The translations under genes and the position numbers were made by a program. The notes under the pieces are model-generated. The model was not told the DNA's origin. It did no database searches and saw nothing but the letters and a program-made list of their open reading frames with translations. A DNA stretch of 42,202 nucleotides from Kiritimatiellia bacterium. Its GTDB lineage: Bacteria > Verrucomicrobiota > Kiritimatiellia > RFP12 > UBA1067. The stretch covers positions 1 to 42,202 of the forward strand of contig JAFXEA010000519.1 of assembly GCA_017521065.1 (NCBI GenBank). The letters run 5' to 3'. Shown here piece by piece: positions 6,836 through 27,874 of the stretch. How positions within the stretch are numbered: the first letter of the stretch is position 1; every line of letters begins with the position of its first letter.

Positions 6836-6882
6836 ACTGTGTTAAAAATAGCCCCCCACGTATTCCGCGCAAGTTCCAACCA

Positions 6883-9800
6883 TCATGGGATGATTGCCTT
6901 TAGAAATGATTTCTGAGCTTGTGGCGACAACTGTCTAAACTTCTCAACCAACCAATCAACCCCCTTGCTCTCTAGGTGACGTTCTATTTTGCCGATAAGC
7001 ACGTTAAGAGCCCCTCCATCCTCTTCTCCCACGAAATACGGTGGAGGATTGGATAGTTCTCGCAATGCAGCCTCGGCCTCCTGGAGAGACAACGATTCTA
7101 TTGAGGCGTATTGCAACTTAGCCTGAGCCATCCATTCGGCGGATGCCTTCTTGCGTTTCTGTTTTATAGAGACGACCAGCTTGTCGAATGTTTCGGCCGC
7201 ATCCCAGGGCGGCTCTTCTTCCTCAAATCGAGATACGAGCTCATCTTTCGTCTCCGAAATAAGAATCTCAAACTGAGACTGCGGGATTTGCAGGGAATCA
7301 ATTCTCGTAGCTGCATCTATATAGGCATTGATGAAATTACGTGCAATCCTAAAATCTTCCAGATTAGAGTCATTACCTTGATAAAGGCCCGTCAGATCTA
7401 CAACTTCATCCCGAATCTGTATGGCGGACTCCATCGTCAACTCCATGTTCCAAACAGCAGCAGCACGTTTATCAATTGCCTTCCGAACTTCTTTAAGACG
7501 CTTCTTGATCTCGTCAAGTCGAACTAGTCGATTGGCGAGCTCATCAGCATAATGCTGATTTCCAACACGCTTCATGGTTGCTGAACATGCCTTGATCAAT
7601 TCAACCCACTTATCAGATTCAGCTCCGATTGCATCAAGGCGTGACACGGGCGTTTCGTCTGGAATAGTGCCATTCTGCGCATTCCAAGTGTCAAATTTGG
7701 TTACAGCTTCACGAGCCTGTACAATCTGCTCAAATGACCTACAAACTCGTTCCACCTGTGCAAGAAGCTTCTCCTTCTCATCATACATCTCAAGATTCTT
7801 GAGATTTCGCGCCATACGCTCCTCAGAGTCCCGCTTGAACTCCGCCAAGTCCTGTTGCGTGCTACCATGCGGTTGATTACGTGCCAACCAAGATGGGAAG
7901 AGTGCCGATATCTGAGCCTTGGCCTCATTGATACGAGTTATCAAAGGTTCAATATCTCGCATGATATCCCACATCGGGTCCTTGCGCAACTCCTTAGCAT
8001 GAGTTTGAAGCAGTGATGCACCATATGCTATCAGTGATAGCTTTTCAGCCCTTATGCCATTCTCAATTTTTTGAATGAAGTCGCTTTCTTTTTCTTCCGC
8101 CGCATCTATTGTGTCAAACGCCTTCTTAGACTCGCTTTTACACAACGCTATCTGATGCCGCAATGCGGGTGGTAGCGGTAAATTTGATTCAAGCTCCGAT
8201 ATACGCTCTGAAAATTCGGCCTGTTCTCGATATGTTCCGCAAGAGGCCCAGTCGGAGAGGAGCTGATCCCACGCCCCATTCTCTCCCGTCATCCGATACA
8301 GAGTTATTCCTTTAAGATAAACGAGATCTAACGAGTTTCCTAAGAACGAACTCTGGGCAATCGTTTCAAGCCCAACTGGTACCCCCTCAAACTGGGCTTG
8401 GATAACTTTTTGATACGCCTGAATGAATACTCCCCAAAGCAACCCCGCCGAAGCAATGTTTGCACCATATGGAGCCGAACAAGCAATCTTTATCGCCTCT
8501 GCGCAATTTAACCCGTCTTGAAGCGAGAGCTGCTTCTCCCATTCGGCCATGATTGCCTTTACAACCAGGTTACCCGGCTTCTGGACGACAGACCCGTCGC
8601 TTTTAGAGAAAACGCGCCAAGCAACATTAAGAACTGCTTGTGCACGATTCCTTTGCGCCACCCCCATCGTTTGCGTATCACTATATGACAAATCACTAGA
8701 AATCAACCGGCGGGTAAATTCGGCACAATCCTTTGCCGCATTTCCTCTAGGTGTCGCGTAACCATCAAACGGGAACGCCAGTACTTTAGGATATGCTGCC
8801 TCGAAGAGCTGTAGTTCCATCATCGCCAAGCGATTTGGTTGTATGTCTTCAAATGGCGTAACGTAATTCCGCGCCATAAGCGCTTGGCGCACAGAATCAT
8901 CCAGGACACGACGCTGTTTCTGTTCATGCGATGCAATCAGTTGCCCAAATCTCGCTTTCTCATCTGTAGTGAGTCGAGATAAAATATCCAAGTCCACAAG
9001 AGCCTTGGACATATTGTGCTCTGAATCATCCTGCACAAAGATCAATAAAATAGGCCTATGCCGTGCAAACTTCTTGAGCTGTTTTTGAGCGTGCTCCTTA
9101 ACGGCTTCTATATCCTCATTTGCCGGGACATAGCAATGTATCATCAAGCCACGCGCAGATTCAACGCTCTGAAACTCTGTATTTTTCTCTAGTTCAGAAG
9201 CTATGGCACCAATGGTCAGGAGGAATCTCGTCCAGTAAGTCGGTTTTTCTTCAAACCTCCATTCCGGCGTGATGATACTGTGCGAATTGGCAAAAGAACA
9301 CTCGGGCGGGGTAAGAACCGAGATGGTGGAAGCCAAACCGCAGAATACTTCAGCTTGCCGATCAGCATCGTACTCCTGCGCTTTTTGACGCATCAAGTGC
9401 AAGAACTGCGGCTTAGAGGCATTATCACTCAGTATCTCATAACTGCGCGAAGCGTTATCCCATTCTATGACGTTACAATCATCTTGAAGCGTTGCGATTG
9501 CTTTGCTAAGCGAATTCGGCTCTAGACCAGAAAACACACCTAGTGCATAGTCTGCCTCAGCCCTTGATCCAGCACGTAATTGCGTTTGAGAAAGCAATAC
9601 TATGGCACGAAGAACATCTTTCTGTTCCGATGTCAAATGCGCATCGAACTTGGCACAGACGGCATTGTACGATTGTAACAGAGTTCCATGTACGGAGTCC
9701 TCTTCTATGCTTTCAAACTCTTGCTGTAAGTCTTTTGTCCACAACCGCACCGGAGGAAGCGCCGTGTCACACACGAAAGAAGCATTAGCGTCAAGAGCAG

Positions 9801-11118
9801 ACTTCAATAATGTCAAAGCCGAACGTTGCTGTAAATATTTACCAGATGATGATAAATAAAACAACACCCACATTGCCACGGGAGACAGCGGCCAGCATCC
9901 TGACACAATAACCCGGTTAAACATGCCTGGATCAGCCCAGGTCGAATAGTTCTGCGATACGGGATACCAGGATGCTATCTTATCTCGAATAATGTCAGCC
10001 TCCTTGAGGTCAATCTCAGGCGTGGTATTTTTCTGAAGAAGGCTTGCTATCAGTGTTTCGAGGTTACTAGAAAGGTATAACTTCTCCGCATTGTCGAAAC
10101 GCGTGATGAAGCGATTCATTTCGTTCTTGAATTCACTCGGCAACCGCTGTGCGTATGCCTTAAGTTCATATTGAACAAATCCAACAAACGTAACCTTTTC
10201 ATCATTCCCTTGCACACCCTCAAAGAGGTGTTGCAAGGCTCCATCTCCGGCGATCTGGGGATGCGAAGTGGCATACTCCATATAATGGCCAAACTCATCA
10301 AAGAGAATAACCATATGTGCATATGGCTTCCCCTTGCCAACGAATTCACGAACGGCAATATTAATTACATCTTTCGCGGTCTCGTCATTAACAGCAGCGA
10401 GAGGGATACCGATATCGGCGAGAAATGCATGGGTCTTTTTGTAGACAATCTCATCAAAGGAATCAAGACGGGAAATGACATCTTCCTTACTTCCCAGCCT
10501 ACACTCCTCCACAAGACGGCTTGTTAGCCTCTCATCTAGGTTATGGAGTAGCGTTGACGCATGCTTAAAACGCTTCCGAAGGTTCTCCAACTTGGTCGCA
10601 TCATGACCATCCGCAGAAACCTTAGCACGGATTTGAGAAAGAAGAACAGATGACAAGTCACTGTTGTTCATGCCGTTCAGCGTAACAACCAACACCCTGC
10701 CAATATTCTTACATGAGCGAGCTACCTCAGCTCCGATACGATTGTCAGCCTGCGCGATGTTCTTCAAGATATTTGCATGCAGTTCTCGATCCTCAGACGA
10801 AAGTAATTCGGAAATCGTAACCGCCAAATGGGATTTACCACTGCCAAATCCTGCAATCGCAAGCGTAAAGGCATTCCCCGTTGGACTCTCCACACGACTA
10901 ACAACACGTTGAACAAAGGATGCCGTATCAATAAGCTTATGCGAAGAATCCCCAATATCTTTTTGGGAAATACCATGACTTGACGGGCCGTGGAACACAA
11001 AGGACGTGGCCGCTTTAGCAGCTTTCCCTGAGCCATCAATGAGCCAATCTACATCAATCGCCCCATTGAAAAGACGATCAATGTTAAACTCAACGATATC
11101 TCCAAGTTTCTTTGACAT
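6883..11118 (-). CDS. Giant P-loop ATPase, SspC/BrxC/PglY-like (DUF499-like) N-terminal half plus long helical C-terminal half (~1411 aa); second copy in this operon
   Basis: ATG 11118 shares its A with the upstream TAA (TAATG), with GAGGAG about 8 nt upstream.
Walker A is 'AIAGFGSGKSH' (about 10825-10860) and Walker B is 'MVILFDEFG'.
It aligns by eye to the SspC-like protein at 22641-25949: 'AFTLAIAGFGSGKSH' vs 'AFTLTGPYGTGKSS', 'MVILFDEFG' vs 'VFFIFDEFG', and 'VTFVGFVQYE' vs 'VFFMGMLHQS'. Confidence 0.65.
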   Translation of the reverse strand: MSKKLGDIVEFNIDRLFNGAIDVDWLIDGSGKAAKAATSFVFHGPSSHGISQKDIGDSSHKLIDTASFVQRVVSRVESPTGNAFTLAIAGFGSGKSHLAVTISELLSSEDRELHANILKNIAQADNRIGAEVARSCKNIGRVLVVTLNGMNNSDLSSVLLSQIRAKVSADGHDATKLENLRKRFKHASTLLHNLDERLTSRLVEECRLGSKEDVISRLDSFDEIVYKKTHAFLADIGIPLAAVNDETAKDVINIAVREFVGKGKPYAHMVILFDEFGHYMEYATSHPQIAGDGALQHLFEGVQGNDEKVTFVGFVQYELKAYAQRLPSEFKNEMNRFITRFDNAEKLYLSSNLETLIASLLQKNTTPEIDLKEADIIRDKIASWYPVSQNYSTWADPGMFNRVIVSGCWPLSPVAMWVLFYLSSSGKYLQQRSALTLLKSALDANASFVCDTALPPVRLWTKDLQQEFESIEEDSVHGTLLQSYNAVCAKFDAHLTSEQKDVLRAIVLLSQTQLRAGSRAEADYALGVFSGLEPNSLSKAIATLQDDCNVIEWDNASRSYEILSDNASKPQFLHLMRQKAQEYDADRQAEVFCGLASTISVLTPPECSFANSHSIITPEWRFEEKPTYWTRFLLTIGAIASELEKNTEFQSVESARGLMIHCYVPANEDIEAVKEHAQKQLKKFARHRPILLIFVQDDSEHNMSKALVDLDILSRLTTDEKARFGQLIASHEQKQRRVLDDSVRQALMARNYVTPFEDIQPNRLAMMELQLFEAAYPKVLAFPFDGYATPRGNAAKDCAEFTRRLISSDLSYSDTQTMGVAQRNRAQAVLNVAWRVFSKSDGSVVQKPGNLVVKAIMAEWEKQLSLQDGLNCAEAIKIACSAPYGANIASAGLLWGVFIQAYQKVIQAQFEGVPVGLETIAQSSFLGNSLDLVYLKGITLYRMTGENGAWDQLLSDWASCGTYREQAEFSERISELESNLPLPPALRHQIALCKSESKKAFDTIDAAEEKESDFIQKIENGIRAEKLSLIAYGASLLQTHAKELRKDPMWDIMRDIEPLITRINEAKAQISALFPSWLARNQPHGSTQQDLAEFKRDSEERMARNLKNLEMYDEKEKLLAQVERVCRSFEQIVQAREAVTKFDTWNAQNGTIPDETPVSRLDAIGAESDKWVELIKACSATMKRVGNQHYADELANRLVRLDEIKKRLKEVRKAIDKRAAAVWNMELTMESAIQIRDEVVDLTGLYQGNDSNLEDFRIARNFINAYIDAATRIDSLQIPQSQFEILISETKDELVSRFEEEEPPWDAAETFDKLVVSIKQKRKKASAEWMAQAKLQYASIESLSLQEAEAALRELSNPPPYFVGEEDGGALNVLIGKIERHLESKGVDWLVEKFRQLSPQAQKSFLKAIIP

Positions 11119-11987
11119 TAGATGAACTCCTCGTACAGACGTGCCCAAAGTTGCGCGGAACTAAGCTTAAAGCATACGATCCAAGGCTGCATATGACGAT
11201 CAATAGATATCAACCCTTTGTCTTCCATAAGCCCCAACATTTGTTGGGACTCGGACAACGTCCACCCGGTGACTGAACGGAAACCACACGTATCCTCTAA
11301 GTCATCAACGGTCAACTGATTCTCCGTCAATCTACCAGAACGCTCCATCAGGTCAGAAAGCCAGGCCGCATACCCAATAGCATAAGCATCTAAAATTGGT
11401 GCCTTCCGCCGAATGACGAGTGCATTGTCCAATCTAACCGCTGCACATGTCATAAAAGACGCAGGCTCTTCGTACATTCTGAATGTTGGAGACAACGCTT
11501 TTGCAGCATCATTTGCACCAGTCTCGGTAATCATCCATTTCAAGAAGTCATCGTACAGAAACGAATTCCCAAAACTCAAAGCCCCGTTCCAGAACATCTG
11601 ATACCACAACTCCGCACCAAACGACTTGTTGCACAGATATAAGTGTGCGATCCATTGGGTTAGCTCTTCTTGTAAAAACCTATCACCCAAATATACAGCA
11701 CGACCAAAATTCGTCAAAACAATATTGTAGCGTTTTTCCTTCTTCTCACCGACCTGCTGCAATCGAACAAGCCCCATCCCGACAGCATAATCAGCAGTAG
11801 GTATGGCCTTGCCACTTGACTTGCCGGTGGGAATGCCTGTCTCACTGGCGATAGCATGCATCTCATATACCCCAGAATTAGCTGCATACTTAAGCATCGC
11901 GCCAAGATACTGTTTCTCTGGGATAAAGGTAAGATGAAAATTCTTAGCCAGCCGTTCAGACCTTGTCTTTTTCGATTTTACCGCCAT
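11118..11987 (-). CDS. Divergent DUF4007/SspB-like protein (~289 aa); second copy in this operon
   Basis: ATG 11987 lies 1 nt after the TAA of the upstream gene (the track start at 12008 is TTG).
It aligns by eye to 25946-26833: 'FHLTFIPEKQYLGAML' vs 'GHQTFVFRHGWLEKGV', 'LTNFGRAVYLG' vs 'LTNFGEYIFG', and 'LTQWIAHLYL' vs 'ATLWLLHYNL'. The length is nearly identical. Confidence 0.55.
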   Translation of the reverse strand: MAVKSKKTRSERLAKNFHLTFIPEKQYLGAMLKYAANSGVYEMHAIASETGIPTGKSSGKAIPTADYAVGMGLVRLQQVGEKKEKRYNIVLTNFGRAVYLGDRFLQEELTQWIAHLYLCNKSFGAELWYQMFWNGALSFGNSFLYDDFLKWMITETGANDAAKALSPTFRMYEEPASFMTCAAVRLDNALVIRRKAPILDAYAIGYAAWLSDLMERSGRLTENQLTVDDLEDTCGFRSVTGWTLSESQQMLGLMEDKGLISIDRHMQPWIVCFKLSSAQLWARLYEEFI

Positions 11988-11988
11988 T

Positions 11989-14900
11989 TTAGAAGCCACG
12001 CTCCTCAAGGGAAGTCACCTTGATCTTATGAACCTGATTTGTAAAATTCCCATTTGCAGTATTCAGTGCCGGGCCGATGGATAGACACTCACCTTTACTT
12101 AAAGAGGTAAGCATCATACGCCACTGGTTTTTATCACCACCTCCTGCAGCCTGAGCGACGAAATCGGTGTACTGGTTGATTTCTGGATCGGCAGGCCGGA
12201 AGAACAACTTATGCCCAGACTGAAACAGCCGAGCCTGCTCGTCTTTCTTAAGGTTACTGAGAGTCTGCGTCGCCGCCATCACACAAAGACCAAACTTTCG
12301 CCCTTCGGTCAGATACTTTCCAAGCGGAGACTCCAACCGTTGATCAAGGTTCTGAACCTCGTCAAGCACGACAATCCGTGGATTCTTCTCTGACCCCCCA
12401 CTCGAGGCAAATGCCCACAAGTCCCACAGAATAAACTCAGTAAGAATACGTGCGGTACTGCGATCAATCATAACCATCTGAAATACTTGGCAACGCTTCA
12501 CAGTATCTGCAAACAGCTCGCTCCAACCCATTAAGGAATCTGCTTTGAATGGAGCTTCATCAATGAATGGCTTGAGCTTGTTCGCCAGCGTCTGAACTGA
12601 CGGCTTTGGATGAACACCATCATCCATAAACGACTGCAAGATAGGAAGCACCTTTTCAAGTGACATCTTTTCCTTGTAGCTTTCCAAGCCCTGCTTCAGT
12701 GCATCAATCAAAACACTGACCTGTTGATCCCCCATCTGATACACGGAATCAAATATTGAAGTCACACGCTTTGCGACATCAATATCACCTTCTTCGATAG
12801 GCGAGCCTAACCCAATGTCCTGCGACTGCTTCTTAAACGGATTGATAGGCAATTTGTTCTGCTTAACGACATTCTGCTGTGGCTGAAGAACTGCATTAGT
12901 AGTTGCCTGAAGCTGATTTGGTAAAAATCCGTTTGTATAATCAATTATCAAGCTATTCTGCCCCTTACGCCCAAGCTCGCAAAGGATAGCTTGGATTGCA
13001 TAAGTTTTACCCATCCCGGAATTGCCAAAAATTAAGAAGTGCCGGTTGTTTAGTTTAGGATGACCAAACTCCCAGAATATCTCTCGTCCATCTTTGGTCT
13101 TGCCAAGAAGGACACGATCAGCTATCCCACCAGCAGGAAGCACTGTGGGTAGAGGTTGTTGCTGATCAACCGCTTTAACCATCTCCTCTGCTTGCACAAC
13201 ACCAGTAGAAGATTTCTCCTCTACGGGGATTTCAGAAGAAGGAATCTGCGTTGTCAACTGCTCTTCCTCATCAACATCCTCAACAGGCAGTGTTCGCTCC
13301 GGCATTTCGTCATCTTCTCCTGATACCGCCGCAGCTTGTAACACAGGATCGCTCCACTTCAATGTCGGCGAAGTCTCATCCGCGCATAAGCGATAAACGA
13401 ACTTACAACCCGCTTCATAAACCGGGATCTCATATTCTTCATCATCAAGATTGAATGTGCGGCGTTCATTGCACTTCATTTCCCCAGATTCTGAGTCTGT
13501 CCAAAAAGCAAAAATACCTGCACCCCATTCAATCTCAAACTCACCAGCAGCAAGACGCTCCATCGCCACTAAGTATTTCGCCATATCCGACGATTCTGTC
13601 AATCGAACGCTCCCCGCGATCATTCGATGCAACTGTAAATACCAATAGCGCTGATCAGGCCTGTTTGCGCTGCCAAAACCGAAATCGCCTTGCAAAGCCG
13701 CCACATTCTTTGGGCGAAACACTTCAGATAGGACCTTAAGTCCATTCTGAATCTGCATGCTCGCCTTTTCAAGATGTTCATCATTACGGTTCGCCATCTT
13801 GCATTCGATGAGCTTGGCTTTTATCTGAAGATGCCCATTCTCAGAAATATTAGCACGTAGCCACAATAAATCAGGATGGGTCTTGTCCTCTTCGCTCACT
13901 TGATCAAACCAGTGACTATATGCATCTATTGAAAAAATGCGATCACAAAGATTTCCACTCTCGTCAAGAGGAAGAATTCTATGCATCAGACTATAGGCCA
14001 TGAAATCGCGAACATATTCCGAAGGGCCGAGCGATCTGATCATCGACAGACCCGCGAGTTCCGTAGCCTCGTGCAACAACGTCTTCGCAATAACCTCAAA
14101 TTGCTCTGGCTTCCCGTATTTATAAACTTGTCCCATCGATGACAGCAACTGCTTGTGGATTGTATCAAACGAATATTTTTGAGTCGAGATCGTGTAATTC
14201 TTCTCCCCATGAAGGCCGACACCAGACCCAAATCCTATTAGTTCGCGTTTTGCCTCCGACTCAGGACCAAGCGCAAGGAGCGCTTTATCAATTAACGCAT
14301 CAATACAAACCACCCATTCAGATGACTCATGTGCATTATCTATCACCGTACGCCACGGGGTATAATCACCGGTAGCCAGAACAATGTGATGCGTGTTCTG
14401 CTTACAACTGGTATCGCGCAACCGGGCAATCACCTCGGTATGATGTGTACAAATCTTAAACTGTCTGTTGCTGACAATCTGTGACCGTTTACAAATCTCA
14501 TCAGGCGTTGTCTTTGCGCATTGCGACTGTTCAAGGATCGGAAACTTAATGGATGCCTTCGTGATATCGAACTCTTCCGTTACCTGAAACACACACCCCT
14601 GGCTGTCCGGCTTGATAAAGTTATAGAACACGAATATATCCGCATCAACTTCTTTTTTGATCGTGTCCGCAAATTGTTTGTACTGATCATCATGCCGAAT
14701 AATACGATGAGAGACAGTAAACCGCATTGCAGCATAGTCCGAATCGTCCTCCTCTGCATCATCTAGGAAGTCTTGCCATTGCGACAACCAGTTTGCAACA
14801 ACACTTGTATCAGATGACTCGGAGAAGAACACAACCTTCATCGCATACTTCTCGGGTCTTTCGTTATCTTGCAGTCGAGCATCTCTCGGCAGCCATTTGG

Positions 14901-17265
14901 CAAACTGATCAATGGCAGCAAGCACCGGCTGTACATCCTCATTTCTGTACACGGCAATCGACATGCCATCCGCCGCTCCTATATGGATCTGGTAGTATTC
15001 CTTCAGTATCCGAAACAGGTGTCGCGATTCGCTTGACTCGCGGAACATCTCGCTGTCGGCTATCTCATCATCGTCAACACGATCATACCTAGTCAGAAAA
15101 CGTGTTGCAGCCAGTTTCTGCTCGGCGGTTATTGACCCTACCCTGTGCACAAGCTCGTCGCCACCCGAACAAACCTCAAAACGCTGGTTCCCGCCATCAA
15201 CAGTAAGACCCGTGATCGGCATCTTCAACTCCGCCATATCGACATAATAGCGCCATTTGGCTTCTCGGAACTGGCGAGCGCCACTCTCCTGTAGCTCTTT
15301 CTCGACTAAGCGGCTAAACGATTCAAACATGAATTGAACTTGTGCCTGAACCATCTCCATCATCGCAGGATGTAGAATCGTCACAACACCAGAGGATTCA
15401 TACTTAGCCGCGCCCCAGACGTCAAGATCTTCGCTTTTACGCCGGTCAACTACCAGGAAAGCCCGCATCAGCATCGCCGCAATAGCATGCGCATCGGCGG
15501 CCTCTGGCATGGTCGCTGTATATGCTTCAGCCAATTGATTATAAGCAGTGAAGACTTGCGGCGTCTTGCCAAGGGGGATCATGGAATACAAACCACGCTC
15601 GCAAACCTTTTCTACAAAGTCCCTGTAACTTTGTGCAAGCTCCTGAAGTTGCTTTTTAAGGATCTGAGTCTGTGGTTGTTGCCACCAATTCTCAGTAATG
15701 AGGATGTCACCAAAGGACAGAGGGTCCTTACATGCCGTAATACAATGTAATAGGACTCGCCGAATCTCTTCAGCATCACGAGCCATCATCAGTTCACGGT
15801 AATACTCGAAATGATAGACGGGGAGCTTGCAATGCCCGCTTGACGTCTTTAGGAAATCTTTTGCCTGGTCGAACAATTGCATTGCAAGGCGATATGGATG
15901 ATCATCCGGAAGCTGAAGCGCAAAACGCAATTTGACCGAATGCTCTGGATCAGCAACTGTTACATGAAATTCAAAAAATGGTTCCGATGTCTTTGCCGGT
16001 AATGTGTTAATCTCATCATGAACAAGATGCGATGTCACCTTTACAAGCTCTCCATCGGTTTTGCGCTTTACATCTATGCACTGTTCACAAAACAGATCCA
16101 AGCCTCCAAGTAATCTGTGAAGATGATCCAGAACCTCCGCTTTAATCTGATCAGCAGAACCTACTGATGTTTGAAAATCATGTTTGAACAAAACGCCCCG
16201 AATCTCAATTGAGGAGACGTCGCTGTTTGGAAATTTACTGCGATATTCACCAAGCGTTCTCCACGTCGCAGACAGCACTACCTCTGCAGGTGACCCATAA
16301 AGTTTTTTTAACGAATCCTTGCTGCCGGGAGTTTTTTTAGGCCTAGCAGCAAGTATCTTATCTAGAATCTCTATGAAGTCAGAATTATGGAGCTCTTCTC
16401 GATAAGCAGTTCCTGTGTTCACATACTCAATCAATGCGCCGAGCATGGAATCTCGGCTTGCGAACGGCGCAAAATCAAGCGAAGGTTCAGGTTCTTTCTC
16501 CGCAAATGCCCTTATTGCGTTTAAGGCCTTCTTACGTTTCGATTCTTCAAGGAACATACTGTAATTGAAGAACTCTGTAGCCGCCTCTGCATAATAACGG
16601 AACGAACTACTTCTGGTTTTATGCAAGGCAAAGCCAGGCATATGAGGCAAATTGAAAGGCGAAAGCCTGCAGAGGATTTCTGCAACAAGTTCTGCTGGCG
16701 ATGCAGGATCCAAATCTGTCGGGACAGACGACAGTAATTTCGACACCATTGGCAAGCCGGAAGTCTCGCGCAAGACTGTAAGGATTCCGTTCATCCTTTC
16801 ATTGTCCGGCACGGACAGTACGGACACCCCGTACCCCTCAAAGAAACGTTCTATCCAAAACTTGAACGTCCCATTCATTGACTCAGTCCATAACGACTCG
16901 CCATCACACTGATAAAAGTCGCTCAAGCTTCCTTTGTCGGTCACATGGTTAGTGCCCAGTAGGAGTTGAAGGGAATTTGCTACAACCTGGTTACGATACT
17001 GCGTAAGATTTCCGTTTGCAAAATGGCCCTCAAATTTTTCCACATCTGCGGCAGACCAACTTTTGCGATACTCCTCTGCCAACCAGAACTGGAGATTGAG
17101 ATTCATTGTATGGCAAAGTCCAGAACATTTGTTCAACAACAAAGATGCGTCTTCGGGCGCAATATCACTAATGATAAACTGAAGACGAGCATCATCCGTC
17201 CCCACTGATTTTGTCACTTGATCCGATATTGAACGAAAGAGTTGTTCTGCGTAATAGTTGTACAT
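11989..17265 (-). CDS. dptH: DptH/DndH-like giant protein with a C-terminal FtsK/HerA/VirB4-type NTPase (1758 aa)
   Basis: ATG 17265 is preceded by AAGGAGG overlapping the upstream stop. Walker A 'IFGNSGMGKTYA' (about 13000-13040), Walker B 'RIVVLDEVQNL' and the HerA-like motif 'EGRKFGLCVMAATQ' are present. Size and position after F/G-like genes match the DptFGH layout. Confidence 0.55.
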   Translation of the reverse strand: MYNYYAEQLFRSISDQVTKSVGTDDARLQFIISDIAPEDASLLLNKCSGLCHTMNLNLQFWLAEEYRKSWSAADVEKFEGHFANGNLTQYRNQVVANSLQLLLGTNHVTDKGSLSDFYQCDGESLWTESMNGTFKFWIERFFEGYGVSVLSVPDNERMNGILTVLRETSGLPMVSKLLSSVPTDLDPASPAELVAEILCRLSPFNLPHMPGFALHKTRSSSFRYYAEAATEFFNYSMFLEESKRKKALNAIRAFAEKEPEPSLDFAPFASRDSMLGALIEYVNTGTAYREELHNSDFIEILDKILAARPKKTPGSKDSLKKLYGSPAEVVLSATWRTLGEYRSKFPNSDVSSIEIRGVLFKHDFQTSVGSADQIKAEVLDHLHRLLGGLDLFCEQCIDVKRKTDGELVKVTSHLVHDEINTLPAKTSEPFFEFHVTVADPEHSVKLRFALQLPDDHPYRLAMQLFDQAKDFLKTSSGHCKLPVYHFEYYRELMMARDAEEIRRVLLHCITACKDPLSFGDILITENWWQQPQTQILKKQLQELAQSYRDFVEKVCERGLYSMIPLGKTPQVFTAYNQLAEAYTATMPEAADAHAIAAMLMRAFLVVDRRKSEDLDVWGAAKYESSGVVTILHPAMMEMVQAQVQFMFESFSRLVEKELQESGARQFREAKWRYYVDMAELKMPITGLTVDGGNQRFEVCSGGDELVHRVGSITAEQKLAATRFLTRYDRVDDDEIADSEMFRESSESRHLFRILKEYYQIHIGAADGMSIAVYRNEDVQPVLAAIDQFAKWLPRDARLQDNERPEKYAMKVVFFSESSDTSVVANWLSQWQDFLDDAEEDDSDYAAMRFTVSHRIIRHDDQYKQFADTIKKEVDADIFVFYNFIKPDSQGCVFQVTEEFDITKASIKFPILEQSQCAKTTPDEICKRSQIVSNRQFKICTHHTEVIARLRDTSCKQNTHHIVLATGDYTPWRTVIDNAHESSEWVVCIDALIDKALLALGPESEAKRELIGFGSGVGLHGEKNYTISTQKYSFDTIHKQLLSSMGQVYKYGKPEQFEVIAKTLLHEATELAGLSMIRSLGPSEYVRDFMAYSLMHRILPLDESGNLCDRIFSIDAYSHWFDQVSEEDKTHPDLLWLRANISENGHLQIKAKLIECKMANRNDEHLEKASMQIQNGLKVLSEVFRPKNVAALQGDFGFGSANRPDQRYWYLQLHRMIAGSVRLTESSDMAKYLVAMERLAAGEFEIEWGAGIFAFWTDSESGEMKCNERRTFNLDDEEYEIPVYEAGCKFVYRLCADETSPTLKWSDPVLQAAAVSGEDDEMPERTLPVEDVDEEEQLTTQIPSSEIPVEEKSSTGVVQAEEMVKAVDQQQPLPTVLPAGGIADRVLLGKTKDGREIFWEFGHPKLNNRHFLIFGNSGMGKTYAIQAILCELGRKGQNSLIIDYTNGFLPNQLQATTNAVLQPQQNVVKQNKLPINPFKKQSQDIGLGSPIEEGDIDVAKRVTSIFDSVYQMGDQQVSVLIDALKQGLESYKEKMSLEKVLPILQSFMDDGVHPKPSVQTLANKLKPFIDEAPFKADSLMGWSELFADTVKRCQVFQMVMIDRSTARILTEFILWDLWAFASSGGSEKNPRIVVLDEVQNLDQRLESPLGKYLTEGRKFGLCVMAATQTLSNLKKDEQARLFQSGHKLFFRPADPEINQYTDFVAQAAGGGDKNQWRMMLTSLSKGECLSIGPALNTANGNFTNQVHKIKVTSLEERGF

Positions 17266-17277
17266 AATATGACCTCC

Positions 17278-18936
17278 TTAGCCATTCGCCTGGGTGTAGG
17301 GGTTCTTTACGAGCGAACAAGAGTCGGATAGACGAACCAGAACCCCAGAAGCGTCCAACATTCTTTCAAGGAACTCATTCGATGCATCATTGCCATCCAG
17401 CTCCGACTTGCGCGAGACCCAATTCCGAGAAGCTACCAATCTGCCAAGATCAAAGACAAATCCATGATGAGCTTCCATCTGTTTCTTAAATGTCTCGAGC
17501 GTCATCCGTTCATTTGGTATGAGGGAAACAACGAGATACCTGAGAATCTTGTCATTTAGGGTATAGCGCATCCATCGGCCTGTTTGCGGCACAATCAATC
17601 CAATACTTTTGCCAATCTTTCTATAGAGCTTAAAACCATACGAATCCGCATCCTTATAAATGCTGGCGACTTTCTTCTCGCGTTTCTCAGGCGTAGGCTC
17701 TTTGGCTGCAATCGCCTGAACCCGTTGCCGCGTTTCATCAGTGCGAATAGCCTGCTGGATAACTTTCACAACCTCGCTGAGCGATTCGGTCGAGAATTTC
17801 TTTAGCTTTCTCTTTCTCGACATTGAATCACATAACAATATTCGATAGTCAAATCCATCATCCTCTTCGCACGGAACTTGAGAGTGTCGATAGCTCTGGG
17901 TGGCCAAAGTTCGCATCACTTGCATTGCGCACGCTATCATTAGCATGTCAGCCGTCTCCATCACGCCGATCTTGGCAGCAAGAATTCGTTTAATTTCAAC
18001 GGCGAACAGGTATCCTTCGCGCCATGATTCGCGTGGTATCCACCCGCACTTAATGCTACGGTCTTCGCCGCCAGAACTATCAGAGACGTCAGAAGTTGCG
18101 GCATCGACACCGGTATCGACAAACTGCATGACCTTTTCAAGACTACCTGTATGAGAGAAGTATTCACCCAAGAGCGCTTCAATCTCATCCCGGAGGCGCT
18201 GAGGGTTCTTTTCATCCTCGCGCAACCCAATAGGAACTCCTCGTTCCTCGCGCTCGCGAAGCCATTGTGCGACTTCATCTTGCGTCTGTGTCAACGCGTT
18301 GCATATCTGCAAGTACAGGGCTTCACCACCGCGACATAGAACGACATGTTGATCGAGGCCGAAACAATTTGGAAACTTGTCGAGCATGTCCTGCCACGAC
18401 GACAATTTCTCTCGCTTAGCTGGGATGGCCTTCCAAATCACCTCCGCGCACAATGCCGTTTTACAAAAAGGGTAGAATGTTTGTGCGCACCATGTTCTTT
18501 TCGAGCCGGTACCCCAAAACCCCAGAAACAAACTACTCAATGTCTGCAAGAAATCTCGCTTGTCATTTTCGTCATCCAAATCGAGTTTGGACCCAAGCAG
18601 TTGAAGCAATTCGTCTCCATGCTGCCTGTGAATCGGATGCCTAGTGGCAAGCGGAGAAGAACTGAGGAATGAAAACAGCTTCAGGTTAATACGGCACTTG
18701 GGGTAATACTGAAGCGCCCTAGACTGCTCGCGCCATTCAAGAAGTTCCTCATTCTTGGGCAAAAAACCACTAAATCGATCAAAGACTTTTTTATCAGAGG
18801 TGGCAACCAGAAGGAATTCTGACAAAAGGTCCATAACCTGCTGATCATCGCAAAAGCGGCGACCAAACATGCGGATGGACGGATTCGCGTCGTCTATCTC
18901 GTCCTCTTTGTAAACTTCTTTGGGAAAACTAATCAT
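17278..18936 (-). CDS. dptG: DptG/DndG-like protein (552 aa); assigned by position and size only
   Basis: ATG 18936 with a GGAGGT RBS and an 8-nt overlap with the upstream gene. I see no catalytic motif by eye. It sits between the F-like and H-like genes. Confidence 0.4.
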   Translation of the reverse strand: MISFPKEVYKEDEIDDANPSIRMFGRRFCDDQQVMDLLSEFLLVATSDKKVFDRFSGFLPKNEELLEWREQSRALQYYPKCRINLKLFSFLSSSPLATRHPIHRQHGDELLQLLGSKLDLDDENDKRDFLQTLSSLFLGFWGTGSKRTWCAQTFYPFCKTALCAEVIWKAIPAKREKLSSWQDMLDKFPNCFGLDQHVVLCRGGEALYLQICNALTQTQDEVAQWLREREERGVPIGLREDEKNPQRLRDEIEALLGEYFSHTGSLEKVMQFVDTGVDAATSDVSDSSGGEDRSIKCGWIPRESWREGYLFAVEIKRILAAKIGVMETADMLMIACAMQVMRTLATQSYRHSQVPCEEDDGFDYRILLCDSMSRKRKLKKFSTESLSEVVKVIQQAIRTDETRQRVQAIAAKEPTPEKREKKVASIYKDADSYGFKLYRKIGKSIGLIVPQTGRWMRYTLNDKILRYLVVSLIPNERMTLETFKKQMEAHHGFVFDLGRLVASRNWVSRKSELDGNDASNEFLERMLDASGVLVRLSDSCSLVKNPYTQANG

Positions 18937-20689
18937 TGCTTACCTCCAGACCTTCTTCTGTGACATTCACGGAGACTGTTGAAAGCTTCCCGTTTTCCTG
19001 GTGCTTCAAAATGAGAAGTCCATCTGATTCGCGCTCGTGCAGATTATAGACGATCTGTGCCATCAGCTTCTCAAGTCGGTCTCGGTACGATAGACTTAAG
19101 CCTCTTCCAATCGCGCCTTCTTTCCGTGTAACGATGTAGTCCAAGAATGATAGATTTAATTCCAAATTGACCCCAGACAGATTCCCTATGCCTACAAGCC
19201 ACGGGGTGTTTCTTGCATCTGTCCTAATCTTGAGCTTAAAATTCTCCGAAAAACTAAACCGCCTTAAAACAAGTTGCGCACTCTGCTTGATCTCTGGACT
19301 TTTACGACGTAGCGTTATGTAGAGATCTTTTGTCTGAGAAGAACCTTCTAGGGGCAAGACCCCACAGAACTCCTCCTGGAGAACCGAAAACAGCGCTGGC
19401 AACAAAGATTTAGCCTTGAACGTTTCTGGGTGGAGCTGCCAATTCCTAAACTTAAGTATCATCGGCGAATCCAGAAACGCGACTTCAAATCTTTCATAAT
19501 CTTTCATAGCATCTACATTTTGCGCATCCGGCTCATGCAAAAAGAAGATCATTCGTCTCCAGACATGGCGTGCGTGTGCCGCCTCTTGGGGTTTCGAGAC
19601 TCTGCGGGCACGCTTTAGAACACGGGCAGCATCACCAGCAATTTCTGGGACATCCTGGAAGCACGGCATGTTCTCCGTTGAATCCCAGAACTTCCTTTCA
19701 AGTGATGGAGAGAACTGCGAATTAAGATGTTGTTCAACAAAAACGCGAATCGCTTTCATTTGACGTGCACCAGGCTCACCATTAAGCCCATCGTCGCCCC
19801 AAAAACGGTTCACAAAGAGGTAACGCTCCATTGGTCCTAGATCTCCCATTAGAGCCTTATTCTGGATTGTCGTACAGTCAAGTGCAGCCGTCAGCATGTA
19901 AGAGAAATGCGCACTGATCTGACGCATGGTCAATCGTTCCCCATATGCATATGTCCTAAAGTACAAAAGCCGGATGCGATCCAGTACGCGATTGCGGTAC
20001 TTTGCGATAAGTAATCGGTTCCGCAGAATCGGACAAGCATCCTTACAAGCACATCCAGCGCAATTAGACCATTCCGACGACTCAACCATTCTTTCCAGGA
20101 GCTTCAACCCAAGATCCACGTTGTCATATTGCGCAAGGTTATAAACGCTAAAACCAACCCCGAGCACCATCGACTGTTTCTGCGATGAATCAAGTGCTGT
20201 CAGTAAATCATTCTCAACCTCTATCATTGATTTACCAAGCCTATCAGACCGCCGTTTAAAGAAATCCAGAAGTGTACCTGTATTTGAAATGAGGAGATAA
20301 CGTTCACCCGACAGTAATTGAATGAAAATGTTTTCACGAGCAGACTCAGTGCATTCGCTCAGGTCTTTGACAACTGTAACTCGACGGCCATCAAACACTA
20401 CCGTTTCTTCTCTCTGGAGTCCATCAGGAAGAATCTTGTCTTTCTCAATCTTCTTTAGGCGCTTTAGTATTTCAATCGCAATCGTTGACTTCCCGTCTCC
20501 AGCGTGACCAGACAATATTACTGACCTCCCGTCGGCAGAGACAAGAGAATCAAATATTTCCTGCGCCCACGGGTGATCAACTTGAAGCTGGGAAAACAAT
20601 GGCTCTTTTGCCTGAGACTCAGCAAGTGCACCCTTGTTGTTTGCATCACCGGAATGCAACGTGTTCAAGTATGAAACAAATGAATTCAT
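18929..20689 (-). CDS. dptF: DptF/DndF-like P-loop protein (586 aa)
   Basis: ATG 20689 is in an ATGA overlap with the sspA-like stop. N-terminal Walker A is 'SGHAGDGKST'. A mid-protein Cys cluster reads 'CAGCACKDACP'. It is the first gene of an F-G-H-like triplet. Confidence 0.5.
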   Translation of the reverse strand: MNSFVSYLNTLHSGDANNKGALAESQAKEPLFSQLQVDHPWAQEIFDSLVSADGRSVILSGHAGDGKSTIAIEILKRLKKIEKDKILPDGLQREETVVFDGRRVTVVKDLSECTESARENIFIQLLSGERYLLISNTGTLLDFFKRRSDRLGKSMIEVENDLLTALDSSQKQSMVLGVGFSVYNLAQYDNVDLGLKLLERMVESSEWSNCAGCACKDACPILRNRLLIAKYRNRVLDRIRLLYFRTYAYGERLTMRQISAHFSYMLTAALDCTTIQNKALMGDLGPMERYLFVNRFWGDDGLNGEPGARQMKAIRVFVEQHLNSQFSPSLERKFWDSTENMPCFQDVPEIAGDAARVLKRARRVSKPQEAAHARHVWRRMIFFLHEPDAQNVDAMKDYERFEVAFLDSPMILKFRNWQLHPETFKAKSLLPALFSVLQEEFCGVLPLEGSSQTKDLYITLRRKSPEIKQSAQLVLRRFSFSENFKLKIRTDARNTPWLVGIGNLSGVNLELNLSFLDYIVTRKEGAIGRGLSLSYRDRLEKLMAQIVYNLHERESDGLLILKHQENGKLSTVSVNVTEEGLEVSND

Positions 20690-22631: not shown

Positions 22632-22640
22632 TCAACACAC

Positions 22641-27737: not shown

Positions 27738-27747
27738 GGCGAAAATA

Positions 27748-27756
27748 AGTATACCA
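27748..27756 (-). promoter_or_regulatory. Extended -10 element TGGTATACT (minus strand)
   Basis: Plus strand reads agtatacca. This is the nearest host-type promoter upstream of the whole 6883-26833 operon. Confidence 0.45.
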
Positions 27757-27874
27757 AATCGGTGGCACGCGGGGAAGCGCGGACGAATAATTTGTGAGTC
27801 GTCGGTGGGTGGCGGGTGGTGACAGACAAGCACCTCTGTTGGGCGCCCGCCCGTACGCACGATCGGGGTGCGTT

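What the first reader, a model, noticed from the sequence alone, without database searches (positions are those of the whole stretch)
6883..11987. Second, divergent SspB-like + giant SspC/BrxC-like ATPase pair welded to the 3' end of the phosphorothioation/Dpt operon: candidate undescribed module
**Seen in sequence.**
- The last two genes of the operon mirror the first two. A ~289-aa protein aligns by eye to the DUF4007/SspB-like protein at three separate blocks: HxTF...(W/Y)L, LTNFG and (T)xW(L/I)xH(Y/L)xL.
- A ~1411-aa P-loop ATPase aligns to the SspC-like ATPase at Walker A, at Walker B and at the following beta-strand block.
- This ATPase carries about 300 extra residues, and its C-terminal half is long, charged and helical.
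- The pair is translationally coupled internally (TAATG) and to the DptH-like gene (TAA-N-ATG).
- No second PAPS-reductase or desulfurase accompanies the pair.

**Established knowledge.** Published Ssp systems, as I recall them, use a single SspB/SspC set with SspD (and optionally SspA), plus SspE or SspFGH as the restriction arm. Dnd systems use DndFGH.

**Inference.**
- A duplicated, sequence-diverged nickase-like/ATPase pair downstream of the restriction genes could be a modification-sensing or DNA-scanning accessory of the DptFGH-like complex.
- Alternatively it could be a second specificity module.
- It could also be an independent BREX/Ssp-related two-gene defence unit.
- I do not recognise this five-gene effector arrangement (F-G-H + B2-C2) as a described system.
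Basis: partly seen in the sequence, partly recalled or inferred. Interest (0 to 1): 0.88.

Follow-up and report, generated by a model that had tools for sequence, protein, structure and literature searches.

The report
Extra SspB/SspC-like pair in phosphorothioate defence
The last two genes of this DNA-phosphorothioation defence operon are a highly diverged second copy of the system's DNA-binding protein and ATPase; they travel with the restriction genes in bacteria of at least 15 major lineages, which points to an undescribed five-gene restriction module.

Summary
B2 (11118-11987, 289 aa) is a distant DUF4007/SspB homologue: profile-profile probability 96.8%, and its AlphaFold model best matches the SspB crystal structure. 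C2 (6883-11118, 1411 aa) is a distant SspC/BrxC-type AAA+ ATPase: profile-profile probability 99.3% against SspC over 744 columns, an N-terminal fold that matches BrxC and then ORC/Cdc6, and invariant Walker A and B motifs.

The pair is not a local accident.
- In 80 species-level genomes found through C2, B2 lies directly upstream in 75 of 75 loci, and H, G and F lie before it in 60/62, 57/59 and 54/57.
- In 80 metagenomic loci found through G, B2 and C2 follow H in 44/46 and 42/44, and SspC plus SspD lie upstream in 30/32.
- B2 and C2 sequence divergence tracks F-G-H (Spearman 0.82-0.93) and not SspBCD (0.26-0.42).

The pair therefore belongs to the restriction arm, which makes a five-gene F-G-H-B2-C2 module. 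I found no description of it in the searchable literature, in PADLOC, Pfam or NCBIfam.

The proposed function is an ATP-driven DNA-scanning or licensing subunit for the H nuclease-translocase. This is inferred, not shown. I rate it a new variant of a known kind.

The parts
6883..11118 (-). C2: 1411-aa SspC/BrxC-type ORC/Cdc6-clade AAA+ ATPase. It is the last conserved gene of the operon. It has a conserved N-terminal extension of about 70 aa and a long helical C-terminal region not seen in other architectures.
   Evidence: PADLOC SspC E 2.8e-16. Family profile vs SspC: probability 99.3%, E 3.3e-20. AF2 model pLDDT 86.6. Foldseek best hits are BrxC 9ZLL/9ZDX at E 4e-9, then ORC/Cdc6. Walker A G92/G94/K95/S96 and Walker B D274/E275 are invariant in 56 sequences. 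The C-terminal 811 aa hit 297 cluster representatives; the full-length ones listed are mostly about 1400-1515 aa.
11118..11987 (-). B2: 289-aa diverged DUF4007/SspB-like protein with three winged-helix DNA-binding modules. It is translationally coupled to H upstream and to C2 downstream.
   Evidence: Pfam DUF4007 E 4.6e-5, below the cut-off. 23 of 23 family members hit DUF4007. Family profile vs SspB: probability 96.8%. AF2 pLDDT 91, pTM 0.90. Foldseek top hits are SspB 6JUF/6LB9 at E 3e-7, TM 0.66-0.68. Junction sequences.
11989..17265 (-). H: 1758-aa DndH/SspH-like protein with a C-terminal HerA/FtsK-type ATPase.
   Evidence: Pfam DUF87 and TrwB_AAD_bind. PADLOC DndH 1.2e-55 and SspH 7.2e-18.
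17278..18936 (-). G: 552-aa SspG-like protein.
   Evidence: PADLOC SspG 5.5e-20, C-terminal part only. No profile similarity to B2.
18929..20689 (-). F: 586-aa SspF-like P-loop NTPase. This copy lacks the N-terminal sulfur-binding domain found in most relatives.
   Evidence: PADLOC SspF 1.1e-26. Sulfur-binding domain analysis.
20686..21852 (-). SspA cysteine desulfurase.
   Evidence: PADLOC SspA 1.1e-119; Pfam Aminotran_5.
21831..22631 (-). SspD PAPS-reductase-like protein.
   Evidence: PADLOC SspD 1.5e-113.
22641..25949 (-). SspC: canonical 1102-aa ATPase of the modification module.
   Evidence: PADLOC SspC 2.9e-262.
25946..26833 (-). SspB: canonical DUF4007 protein of the modification module.
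   Evidence: Pfam DUF4007 2.7e-79; PADLOC SspB 6.3e-78.
6855..6873 (-). Weak terminator-like hairpin 10 nt after the C2 stop codon.
   Evidence: Consensus scan only.

Best explanation
B2 and C2 are an ancient, strongly diverged duplicate of the SspB-SspC pair. That pair is the DNA-recognition protein and ORC/Cdc6-BrxC-type AAA+ ATPase that target phosphorothioate (PT) writing.

The duplicate has become a fixed part of the restriction arm. The window carries an Ssp-type system with a four-gene writer (SspB-C-D-A) and a five-gene restriction module (F-G-H-B2-C2).

Proposed mechanism (inferred, not shown):
1. C2 binds and hydrolyses ATP. Like BrxC, it assembles on DNA in a nucleotide-dependent way.
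2. B2 supplies DNA contact or motif recognition through its three winged-helix modules.
3. Together they scan DNA and license or position the H nuclease/HerA-FtsK translocase, with F and G, on DNA that lacks the PT mark.
4. PT marks on host DNA veto the reaction. In most relatives these marks can be read by a sulfur-binding domain fused to F.

In short, the two jobs that a single BrxC does in BREX (modification and restriction) are here split between two paralogues, SspC and C2.
For: SHOWN: homology.
- B2 vs SspB: profile probability 96.8%; the model matches the SspB crystal structure over its full length.
- C2 vs SspC: probability 99.3% over 744 columns; the N-terminal fold matches BrxC and then ORC/Cdc6.

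SHOWN: the genes are under selection as active proteins. [quoted passage not shown] 297 clusters at 50% identity share the C2-specific C-terminal region.

SHOWN: linkage.
- B2 is directly upstream of C2 in 75/75 loci.
- H, G and F lie upstream in 60/62, 57/59 and 54/57 loci.
- From the G side, B2 follows in 44/46 and C2 in 42/44 loci.
- The median B2-to-C2 gap is 12 nt, and the H-to-B2 median is an 8-nt overlap.
- No conserved gene follows C2.

SHOWN: co-inheritance with the restriction genes.
- Spearman correlation of pairwise identities for B2/C2 is 0.82-0.93 against F/G/H and 0.26-0.42 against SspB/C/D.
- Regression coefficients are 1.16-1.21 on FGH and -0.16 to -0.21 on SspBCD, with R2 0.79-0.84.

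SHOWN: a link to PT reading. 44 of 66 complete F proteins in these loci carry an N-terminal sulfur-binding domain; their profile matches PDB 8H0L (SBDHga) at E 8.8e-33.

FROM THE LITERATURE: BrxC binds DNA and self-associates under ATP control. It binds the BrxB:PglZ effector, and separate mutants affect methylation and restriction differently (PMC13326643).
Against: - There are no experimental data for any member of this module.
- Co-inheritance shows which genes travel together. It does not show physical interaction or the direction of control (activator or brake).
- The published SspFGH and DndFGH systems work as three genes (PMC8092258; Priestia plasmid locus). An extra ATPase pair is therefore not generally required by FGH machines.
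- If B2 had to read the motif that SspB writes, some co-variation might be expected. Global identities correlate only weakly (0.30).
- The window's own F lacks the sulfur-binding domain, so how this particular copy reads PT is unexplained.
- For most C2-anchored loci the DNA upstream of F could not be seen because of the flank limit.
Confidence: 0.5

Rival explanations
1. B2-C2 acts as a brake or safety switch rather than a target finder. It holds F-G-H inactive on host DNA or in uninfected cells and releases it on infection. This would resemble the idle/active equilibrium proposed for BrxC assemblies.
For: - The linkage and co-inheritance data fit this reading equally well.
- SspFGH without PT is toxic to the host (PMC8092258), so a brake would be useful.
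- BrxC is proposed to balance idling and active states.
Against: - Two loci keep F-G-H without an intact pair. In L098 the pair is replaced by GmrSD, kinase and AAA_21 genes; L155 has only B2 fragments. That would be hazardous if the pair were an essential brake. These loci may, however, be decaying.
- No direct evidence either way.
Confidence: 0.2
2. B2-C2 is a second targeting pair for modification. It borrows SspD and SspA from the same operon to write PT at a second motif or on the other strand.
For: - The pair is paralogous to the writer's targeting pair.
- Core residues conserved in SspB and SspC are retained.
- SspBCD is nearly always nearby: 30/32 loci.
Against: - B2 and C2 divergence follows F-G-H, not SspD, SspC or SspB.
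- The pair always sits after H and is translationally coupled to it, even where SspBCD(A) is inverted or lies downstream (L030, L067, L071, L084).
- L142 has no Ssp genes in the 8 kb upstream of F.
- C2 has extra N- and C-terminal regions that SspC lacks.
Confidence: 0.12
3. B2-C2 is an independent two-gene defence unit, or a decaying duplicate, that merely lies next to the Ssp operon.
For: Defence genes cluster in islands. The operon sits in a 20-kb block of about 47% GC.
Against: - The pair was never found without H upstream in 62 loci with enough DNA; in two of them other genes are inserted between H and B2.
- Order and spacing are conserved across at least 15 major lineages.
- The genes overlap or are separated by about 12 nt.
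- Catalytic motifs are invariant.
Confidence: 0.03

Closest known systems
SspB-SspC of the SspABCD phosphorothioation system
   Same: Same two folds, in the same gene order and with translational coupling. B2 matches the SspB crystal structure. C2 aligns with SspC over 744 profile columns. Core residues are shared.
   Different: - About 19% identity between the ATPases.
- B2 falls below the Pfam DUF4007 cut-off, and C2 hits no Pfam or NCBIfam model.
- C2 is about 300 aa longer.
- No dedicated SspD or SspA accompanies the pair.
- The pair is co-inherited with F-G-H and not with SspD.
BrxC (with BrxA) of BREX
   Same: The N-terminal part of the C2 model (about 620 aligned columns) is the best structural match to BrxC cryo-EM structures. 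BrxA and DUF4007 share the three-module DNA-binding design (PMC12839542). BrxC takes part in restriction as well as modification.
   Different: There is no PglZ, PglX, BrxB or BrxL in the operon. PADLOC BrxC gives only E 6e-4. The effector here is a DndH-like nuclease/HerA protein.
BREX-related capture (BRC) system (PglZ, DUF6079, STAND NTPase, DUF4007, HerA/FtsK, +/- GNAT and TGT; NAR 2026, PMC12839542)
   Same: It combines a BrxC-like ATPase, a DUF4007 protein, a P-loop NTPase and a HerA/FtsK translocase in one operon. F proteins here give weak nSTAND3 hits in 16 of 44.
   Different: There is no PglZ, GNAT or TGT. HerA is part of a 1758-aa DndH-like protein with its own nuclease. The module is coupled to SspBCD PT writing. 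BRC was reported in only 45 taxa. I could not compare sequences directly.
SspFGH and DndFGH (DptFGH) three-gene restriction modules
   Same: F, G and H here are distant homologues in the same order, next to PT-writing genes.
   Different: The published modules are three genes and function as such (PMC8092258). A canonical Dnd-DptFGH plasmid locus has no such pair after dptH. This clade has two further near-obligate genes.
Duplicated ATPase/DNA-binder pair of Dnd systems (CxC-type ABC ATPase plus DndE, 'PbeABCD')
   Same: The same evolutionary logic: the writer's scanning pair is duplicated and re-coupled to nucleases (PMC10853773). Such a pair follows dptH in the Priestia plasmid.
   Different: The protein folds are unrelated (ABC ATPase and ribbon-helix-helix, against AAA+ and winged helix), and so are the partners (an HKD nuclease-helicase).

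Membership tests
DUF4007 / SspB family (B2) | Match to Pfam PF13182 above the gathering score | tested here: not met
   Window B2 scores 23.1 bits against a cut-off of 27, and only residues 84-151 match. All 23 family members scanned hit at E<=0.01, best 3.7e-8.
DUF4007 / SspB family (B2) | Full-length SspB fold (three winged-helix modules) | tested here: met
   AF2 pLDDT 91, pTM 0.90. Foldseek top hits are SspB 6JUF/6LB9 at E 3e-7, TM 0.66-0.68 over about 325 columns. hhalign probability 96.8% over 236 columns.
DUF4007 / SspB family (B2) | DNA-nicking activity required for PT formation | not testable with these tools
   Residues conserved in both families (H18/H8, T20/T10, F21/F11, D102/D89, W112/W99, H115/H102) are retained. 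The catalytic residues of SspB were not available to me.
SspC / BrxC-type AAA+ ATPase (C2) | ORC/Cdc6-clade AAA+ core with intact Walker A and B motifs | tested here: met
   G92-x-G94-K95-S96 and D274-E275 are invariant in 56 sequences. Foldseek gives BrxC E 4e-9 and ORC/Cdc6 E 3e-6.
SspC / BrxC-type AAA+ ATPase (C2) | Match to curated family models (Pfam PF19557/DUF6079, DUF499; NCBIfam BREX_BrxC) | tested here: not met
   None of 19 family members hits any Pfam model at E<=0.01. No NCBIfam hit. Only partial PADLOC SspC hits, E 2.8e-16. A few relatives carry a precomputed 'faint' PF19557 hit.
SspC proper (modification ATPase) | Operonic partnership and co-evolution with SspD and SspB | tested here: not met
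   C2 identity correlates 0.27-0.42 with SspB/C/D and 0.85-0.93 with F/G/H. The canonical SspC is a separate gene at 22641-25949.
SspFGH / DndFGH restriction module | Three genes F, G, H in order next to PT-writing genes | tested here: met
   Weak PADLOC hits to SspF, SspG and DndH/SspH. Order and adjacency to SspBCDA confirmed.
SspFGH / DndFGH restriction module | Equivalog-level match to DptF/DptG/DptH (NCBIfam) | tested here: not met
   No DptF, DptG or DptH model hit at E<=0.01.
BREX (any type) | PglZ together with BrxC | tested here: not met
   No PglZ domain in any of the ten operon proteins.
BRC system (PMC12839542) | PglZ plus DUF6079 plus STAND NTPase plus DUF4007 plus stand-alone HerA/FtsK | tested here: not met
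   PglZ is absent, and HerA is fused within a DndH-like protein.
PbeABCD | HKD nuclease-helicase, CxC ABC ATPase, DndE-like protein | tested here: not met
   The domain content is unrelated.

The most novel reading that the evidence does not exclude
The F-G-H-B2-C2 module is a BREX-like restriction machine in which the hardware that chooses where to write the PT mark (SspB plus SspC) has been duplicated to make a dedicated 'reader/loader' (B2 plus C2). This pair finds the same sites and decides, with ATP, whether the DndH-like nuclease-translocase fires. That would be a writer/reader paralogy. It would explain how PT systems tolerate partial modification, and it would link the BREX, Ssp and Dnd systems mechanistically.
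Probability: 0.3. Interest if true: 0.8.

Novelty: new variant of a known kind. Interest (0 to 1): 0.66.

Why it matters
PT-based defence is usually described as a writer (DndABCDE or SspABCD) plus a three-gene (FGH) or one-gene (SspE) restriction arm. How FGH complexes tell self from non-self when only a minority of sites carry the mark is still unclear.

This finding adds the following.
- A widespread clade has a restriction arm with two more near-obligate subunits. At least 297 protein clusters at 50% identity share the C2-specific region, and 156 species-level genomes from at least 15 major lineages carry a C2 relative.
- The two extra subunits are paralogues of the writer's own targeting pair. 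One is a BrxC-type ATPase, the component thought to switch BREX between modification and restriction.
- This gives a concrete, testable entry point: two genes to delete, with Walker motifs to mutate.
- It ties the Ssp, Dnd and BREX systems together.
- It means current annotation tools leave two large genes of these systems unnamed.

Genomes of named isolates carry the module: Syntrophorhabdus aromaticivorans UI, Thiocapsa imhoffii DSM 21303, Methylobacter marinus, Halomonas sp. RA08-2 and Thiorhodovibrio winogradskyi.

Tried and rejected
- **PbeABCD as the identity of the pair.** Rejected. Its parts are an HKD nuclease-helicase, a small protein, a CxC ABC ATPase and a DndE-like protein.
- **BREX or BRC membership.** Rejected for lack of PglZ.
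- **B2 as a relative of G.** No profile similarity.
- **Sequence search of B2 and C2 profiles against PDB.** B2 gave nothing. C2 gave only coiled-coil noise in its C-terminal part. Fold search was needed.
- **Looking for annotated examples.**
  - C2 against plasmids gave only two weak partial hits.
  - The sspD DNA against E. coli genomes gave nothing.
  - I therefore could not inspect an E. coli or Vibrio SspFGH locus directly.
- **A conserved sixth gene after C2.** None found.
- **Pfam search for a sulfur-binding domain in the N-terminal extensions of long F proteins.** No hit. A profile search of PDB then found it.
- **A first count of sulfur-binding domains.** It was inflated because the profile included the start of the F core. 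I corrected it by requiring coverage of the domain proper.
- **The SspABCD-SspE paper (PubMed 32251370).** Not held, so the SspB catalytic residues could not be checked.
- **Supplement of the DndFGH reappraisal paper.** It holds no mention of DUF4007, DUF6079, SspC or BrxC.
Full report
**1. What is in the window.**

Positions 6883-26833 carry nine tightly packed genes on the minus strand, in a block of about 47% GC. The flanks are 52-68% GC.

In order of transcription, the genes are:
- SspB: Pfam DUF4007 E 2.7e-79.
- SspC: PADLOC SspC E 2.9e-262.
- SspD: PADLOC E 1.5e-113.
- SspA: PADLOC E 1.1e-119.
- F: an SspF-like P-loop protein, E 1.1e-26.
- G: SspG-like, E 5.5e-20, C-terminal part only.
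- H: 1758 aa. PADLOC DndH E 1.2e-55 on the HerA part, SspH E 7.2e-18 on the middle part, and Pfam DUF87 and TrwB_AAD_bind.
- B2: 11118-11987, 289 aa.
- C2: 6883-11118, 1411 aa.

NCBIfam has no DptF, DptG or DptH match for F, G and H. 'Dpt' is therefore a loose label; these are distant relatives of the SspFGH and DndFGH proteins.

**2. Checking the observation.**

The junctions are as described: H TAA-A-ATG B2, and B2 TAATG C2.

The by-eye similarities are marginal in pairwise BLASTP. B2 against SspB gives E 0.009, and C2 against SspC gives E 3e-4 at 19% identity.

To test them properly I collected the families. C2 has more than 900 homologues, nearly all about 1410-1440 aa and unnamed. B2 has 225.

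Profile against profile:
- B2 family vs the SspB family of the same loci: probability 96.8%, E 2.1e-10, covering B2 18-275 and SspB 8-277.
- C2 family vs the SspC family: probability 99.3%, E 3.3e-20, over 744 columns.
- All 23 B2 relatives scanned hit Pfam DUF4007 weakly.
- None of 19 C2 relatives hits any Pfam model.

Structure:
- The AlphaFold model of B2 (pLDDT 91, pTM 0.90) has the SspB crystal structures 6JUF and 6LB9 as its only strong PDB matches (E 3e-7, TM 0.66-0.68, full length).
- The model of C2 residues 1-1200 (pLDDT 86.6) matches the N-terminal part of BrxC from Acinetobacter BREX (9ZLL and 9ZDX, E 4e-9). ORC/Cdc6 proteins come next.

Residues conserved in both paralogous families include the H-x-T-F motif, D102/D89, W112/W99 and H115/H102 in B2/SspB. 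In C2/SspC they include Walker A, Walker B and several arginines. Walker A (G92, G94, K95, S96) and Walker B (D274, E275) are invariant in 56 C2 sequences.

C2 differs from SspC in three ways:
- It has a conserved N-terminal stretch of about 70 aa.
- It has a long helical C-terminal region.
- That C-terminal region (811 aa) finds 297 cluster representatives among 1.84 billion proteins. The full-length ones listed are mostly about 1400-1515 aa, with the region at the same position. The rest are shorter, mostly fragments.

**3. Is the linkage conserved?**

*Scan from the C2 side.* A scan of one genome per species with the C2 profile gave 156 relatives. The best 80 were fetched. They come from:
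- Kiritimatiellia, Verrucomicrobiota, Lentisphaerae, Planctomycetota and Acidobacteriota;
- several Desulfobacterota orders, Cloacimonadota, Latescibacterota, Atribacteria and Gemmatimonadales;
- Bacteroidales, Clostridia, Spirochaeta, Chlorobiaceae, Armatimonadia and Synergistaceae;
- Chloroflexota and Gammaproteobacteria.

I searched the six-frame ORFs of these loci with iterated profiles of the window's proteins.
- B2 is directly upstream of C2 in all 75 loci with at least 1 kb upstream. Four apparent misses were checked: three were artefacts of over-long ORF calls, and one (L030) has a 1.2-kb gap.
- H is present in 60/62, G in 57/59 and F in 54/57 loci with enough DNA.
- The two H exceptions (Thiocapsa, L076 and L081) have about 7.4 kb inserted between H and B2. 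In L081 the insert encodes three BrxC_BrxD-family ATPases and a DEAD-box helicase.
- No conserved gene follows C2.

*Scan from the G side.* A second, independent scan of metagenomes with a G profile gave 309 relatives. The best 80 were fetched.
- B2 follows H in 44/46 loci and C2 in 42/44.
- The exceptions are L098, where GmrSD, a kinase and an AAA_21 ATPase follow H, and L155, which has only B2 fragments.
- SspC plus SspD lie upstream of F in 30/32 loci with enough DNA.

*Spacing.* The gaps are tight: a median of 12 nt between B2 and C2, and a median 8-nt overlap between H and B2.

*A second subfamily.* A C2 subfamily of about 1495 aa in Gammaproteobacteria is 26-28% identical to the window's C2. 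It keeps the same F-G-H-B2-C2 order. Members include Thiothrix, Methylobacter marinus, Thiocapsa, Allochromatium and Thiorhodovibrio.

*Canonical systems for comparison.* A canonical Dnd plus DptFGH locus on a Priestia plasmid has no such pair after dptH. The published SspFGH works as a cloned three-gene cassette (PMC8092258).

**4. Which module does the pair belong to?**

I used 28 loci plus the window in which all eight families are complete. I compared pairwise identities family by family over the same 401 locus pairs.
- SspB, SspC and SspD correlate with one another: Spearman 0.77-0.90.
- F, G, H, B2 and C2 correlate with one another: 0.82-0.95.
- Between the two groups the correlation is 0.26-0.52.

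In a two-variable regression, B2 and C2 identity depends on F-G-H identity (coefficients 1.16 and 1.21). It does not depend on SspBCD identity (-0.16 and -0.21); R2 is 0.79 and 0.84.

Writer and restriction modules have therefore been shuffled against each other during evolution, and B2-C2 moved with F-G-H. This is evidence for co-inheritance. It is not proof of physical interaction.

**5. A further link to PT reading.**

Most F proteins of this clade are about 750-780 aa, against 586 aa in the window.
- A profile of their N-terminal extension matches PDB 8H0L, the sulfur-binding domain SBDHga, at E 8.8e-33 over 141 residues.
- SBDHga binds PT-DNA irrespective of sequence. The full-length Hga enzyme that carries it also restricts DNA with the Ssp-type CpsCA mark (PMC10602919).
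- 44 of 66 complete F proteins carry this domain, including three that also carry kinase domains (two of them with a NERD nuclease domain as well).
- The window's F does not carry it.
- Two gammaproteobacterial F proteins carry a precomputed Pfam DNA-SBD_ScoMcrA hit.

The five-gene module is thus built to read PT in most of its members.

**6. How it most likely works.**

Shown:
- The pair is paralogous to SspB-SspC.
- The ATPase motifs are intact.
- The pair has near-obligate, translationally coupled linkage to F-G-H.
- It is co-inherited with F-G-H.
- It has no SspD or SspA of its own.

From the literature:
- SspB is reported as the nicking protein essential for single-strand PT formation.
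- SspC is regarded as an ORC/Cdc6-type ATPase that scans DNA with SspB (PMC10853773).
- BrxC binds DNA and multimerises under ATP control. It binds the BrxB:PglZ effector and is proposed to balance modification against restriction (PMC13326643).

Inferred:
- C2 with B2 forms the ATP-dependent DNA-scanning or loading subunit of the restriction machine. It licenses or positions the H nuclease-translocase on DNA that lacks PT.
- F (with its sulfur-binding domain where present) and G contribute PT and DNA sensing.
- The two roles of a BrxC-type ATPase are split between SspC (writing) and C2 (restriction).

I give this about 0.5 overall: high for 'integral part of the restriction arm', much lower for the exact role.

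Rivals:
- A brake on F-G-H: 0.2.
- A second writer-targeting pair that shares SspD and SspA: 0.12. This is disfavoured by the co-inheritance pattern and the fixed position after H.
- An unrelated neighbour or a decaying duplicate: 0.03.

**7. Comparison with what is known.**

The closest relatives are listed below.
- SspB-SspC: same folds, different partners and different evolutionary history.
- BrxC with BrxA of BREX: same ATPase fold, no PglZ here.
- The BREX-related capture system (NAR 2026), which combines PglZ, DUF6079, a STAND NTPase, DUF4007 and HerA/FtsK in 45 taxa. The cast is similar, but here there is no PglZ, GNAT or TGT, and HerA is part of a DndH-like nuclease.
- The three-gene SspFGH and DndFGH modules.
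- By analogy only, the duplicated ABC ATPase-DndE pair of Dnd systems ('PbeABCD').

The 2024 reappraisal of DndFGH describes many F and H domain variants. In its main text and its one held supplement it does not mention a DUF4007 plus BrxC-like pair downstream.

Searches for SspFGH/DUF4007, DUF6079, DndFGH+BrxC and 'SspC-like'/'SspB-like' found no description. Sources name the proteins 'hypothetical', 'ATP-binding protein' or 'DUF4007 family protein'.

The library lacks most subscription journals, so an existing description cannot be excluded.

**8. Verdict.**

This is a real, conserved and apparently undescribed extension of a known kind of defence system. The finding is a five-gene PT-linked restriction module whose last two genes are a diverged SspB/SspC pair. 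I rate it a new variant of a known kind, with interest of about 0.66.

**Limits.**
- There are no experiments.
- No multimer modelling was possible.
- The DNA upstream of F was not visible in the C2-anchored loci.
- The gammaproteobacterial subfamily's link to a PT writer was seen only in L071 and L084. In Methylobacter marinus an SspA-like gene lies downstream.

Noticed in passing
Loci L087, L099, L126, L134 and others (N-terminal ~150 aa of F); window F 18929-20689 for contrast: 44 of 66 complete F proteins of this clade carry an N-terminal sulfur-binding (PT-DNA-reading) domain. Their profile matches PDB 8H0L (SBDHga) at E 8.8e-33, yet Pfam did not detect the domain in them. The window's 586-aa F lacks it.
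   Followed up: yes
window 26883-27860 (minus strand): An HNH endonuclease gene lies 49 nt upstream of sspB on the same strand (PADLOC HNH PDLC04132 E 1.8e-51; NCBIfam 'phosphorothioated DNA-binding restriction endonuclease' E 6e-13, below its cut-off). Its GC is about 58% against 46% for the operon. An HNH homologue also lies upstream of sspB in L105 and L137. A PT-dependent nuclease next to a PT writer would be odd.
   Followed up: partly
L081 1708-8736 and L076 (Thiocapsa): About 7.4 kb is inserted between H and B2. In L081 the insert encodes three BrxC_BrxD-family (PF10923) ATPases, a DEAD-box helicase and a 269-aa protein with no Pfam match. This is either a defence cassette nested inside the operon or an extra accessory set.
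   Followed up: partly
L098 16943-21279; L155 10375-10739: These are rare loci where F-G-H lacks the pair. In L098 H is followed by GmrSD_N, a protein kinase and an AAA_21 ATPase. In L155 only B2 fragments remain.
   Followed up: partly
L005/L017, L123, L136, L158 (F of 1511-1534 aa): These F variants carry extra fused domains. Pfam records NERD nuclease and protein-kinase domains for L005, and kinase and NERD hits were counted among the scanned F proteins (3 and 2 of 44). The three complete ORFs (L123, L136, L158) also contain the sulfur-binding domain. Such NERD-kinase fusions are described for DndF in PMC10853773.
   Followed up: partly
window ~6900-27000 against the flanks; L166-L168: The operon is a block of about 47% GC within flanks of 52-68% GC, with no tRNA gene in the window. 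Contigs whose C2 is 99% identical continue after C2 with a PLDc_2-like gene, RlaP and Metallophos genes that are absent from the window. The island's downstream border therefore differs between strains.
   Followed up: partly
window 226-1383 and 4259-5494 (minus strand): Two AAA_14/DUF4143 ATPase genes lie just beyond the C2 end of the operon.
   Followed up: no
L169 15664-19368 (Methylobacter marinus): Downstream of C2 on the opposite strand are an SspA-like cysteine desulfurase (PADLOC E 4.5e-151) and an 842-aa protein with no match in Pfam or PADLOC. This may be a different partner for PT writing in the gammaproteobacterial subfamily.
   Followed up: partly
window 38256-42195 (minus strand): A 1032-aa gene (only a weak Reprolysin_3 hit) and a 283-aa gene form an overlapping pair in a second dip in GC (49-55%). 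The pair is unexplained.
   Followed up: no
L171 (Priestia megaterium plasmid NZ_CP048887.1): A canonical dndBCD-dptFGH locus is followed on the opposite strand by a second dndD, a 'DNA modification system-associated small protein' and an HNH endonuclease. This fits the duplicated ATPase-pair theme reported for Dnd systems.
   Followed up: no
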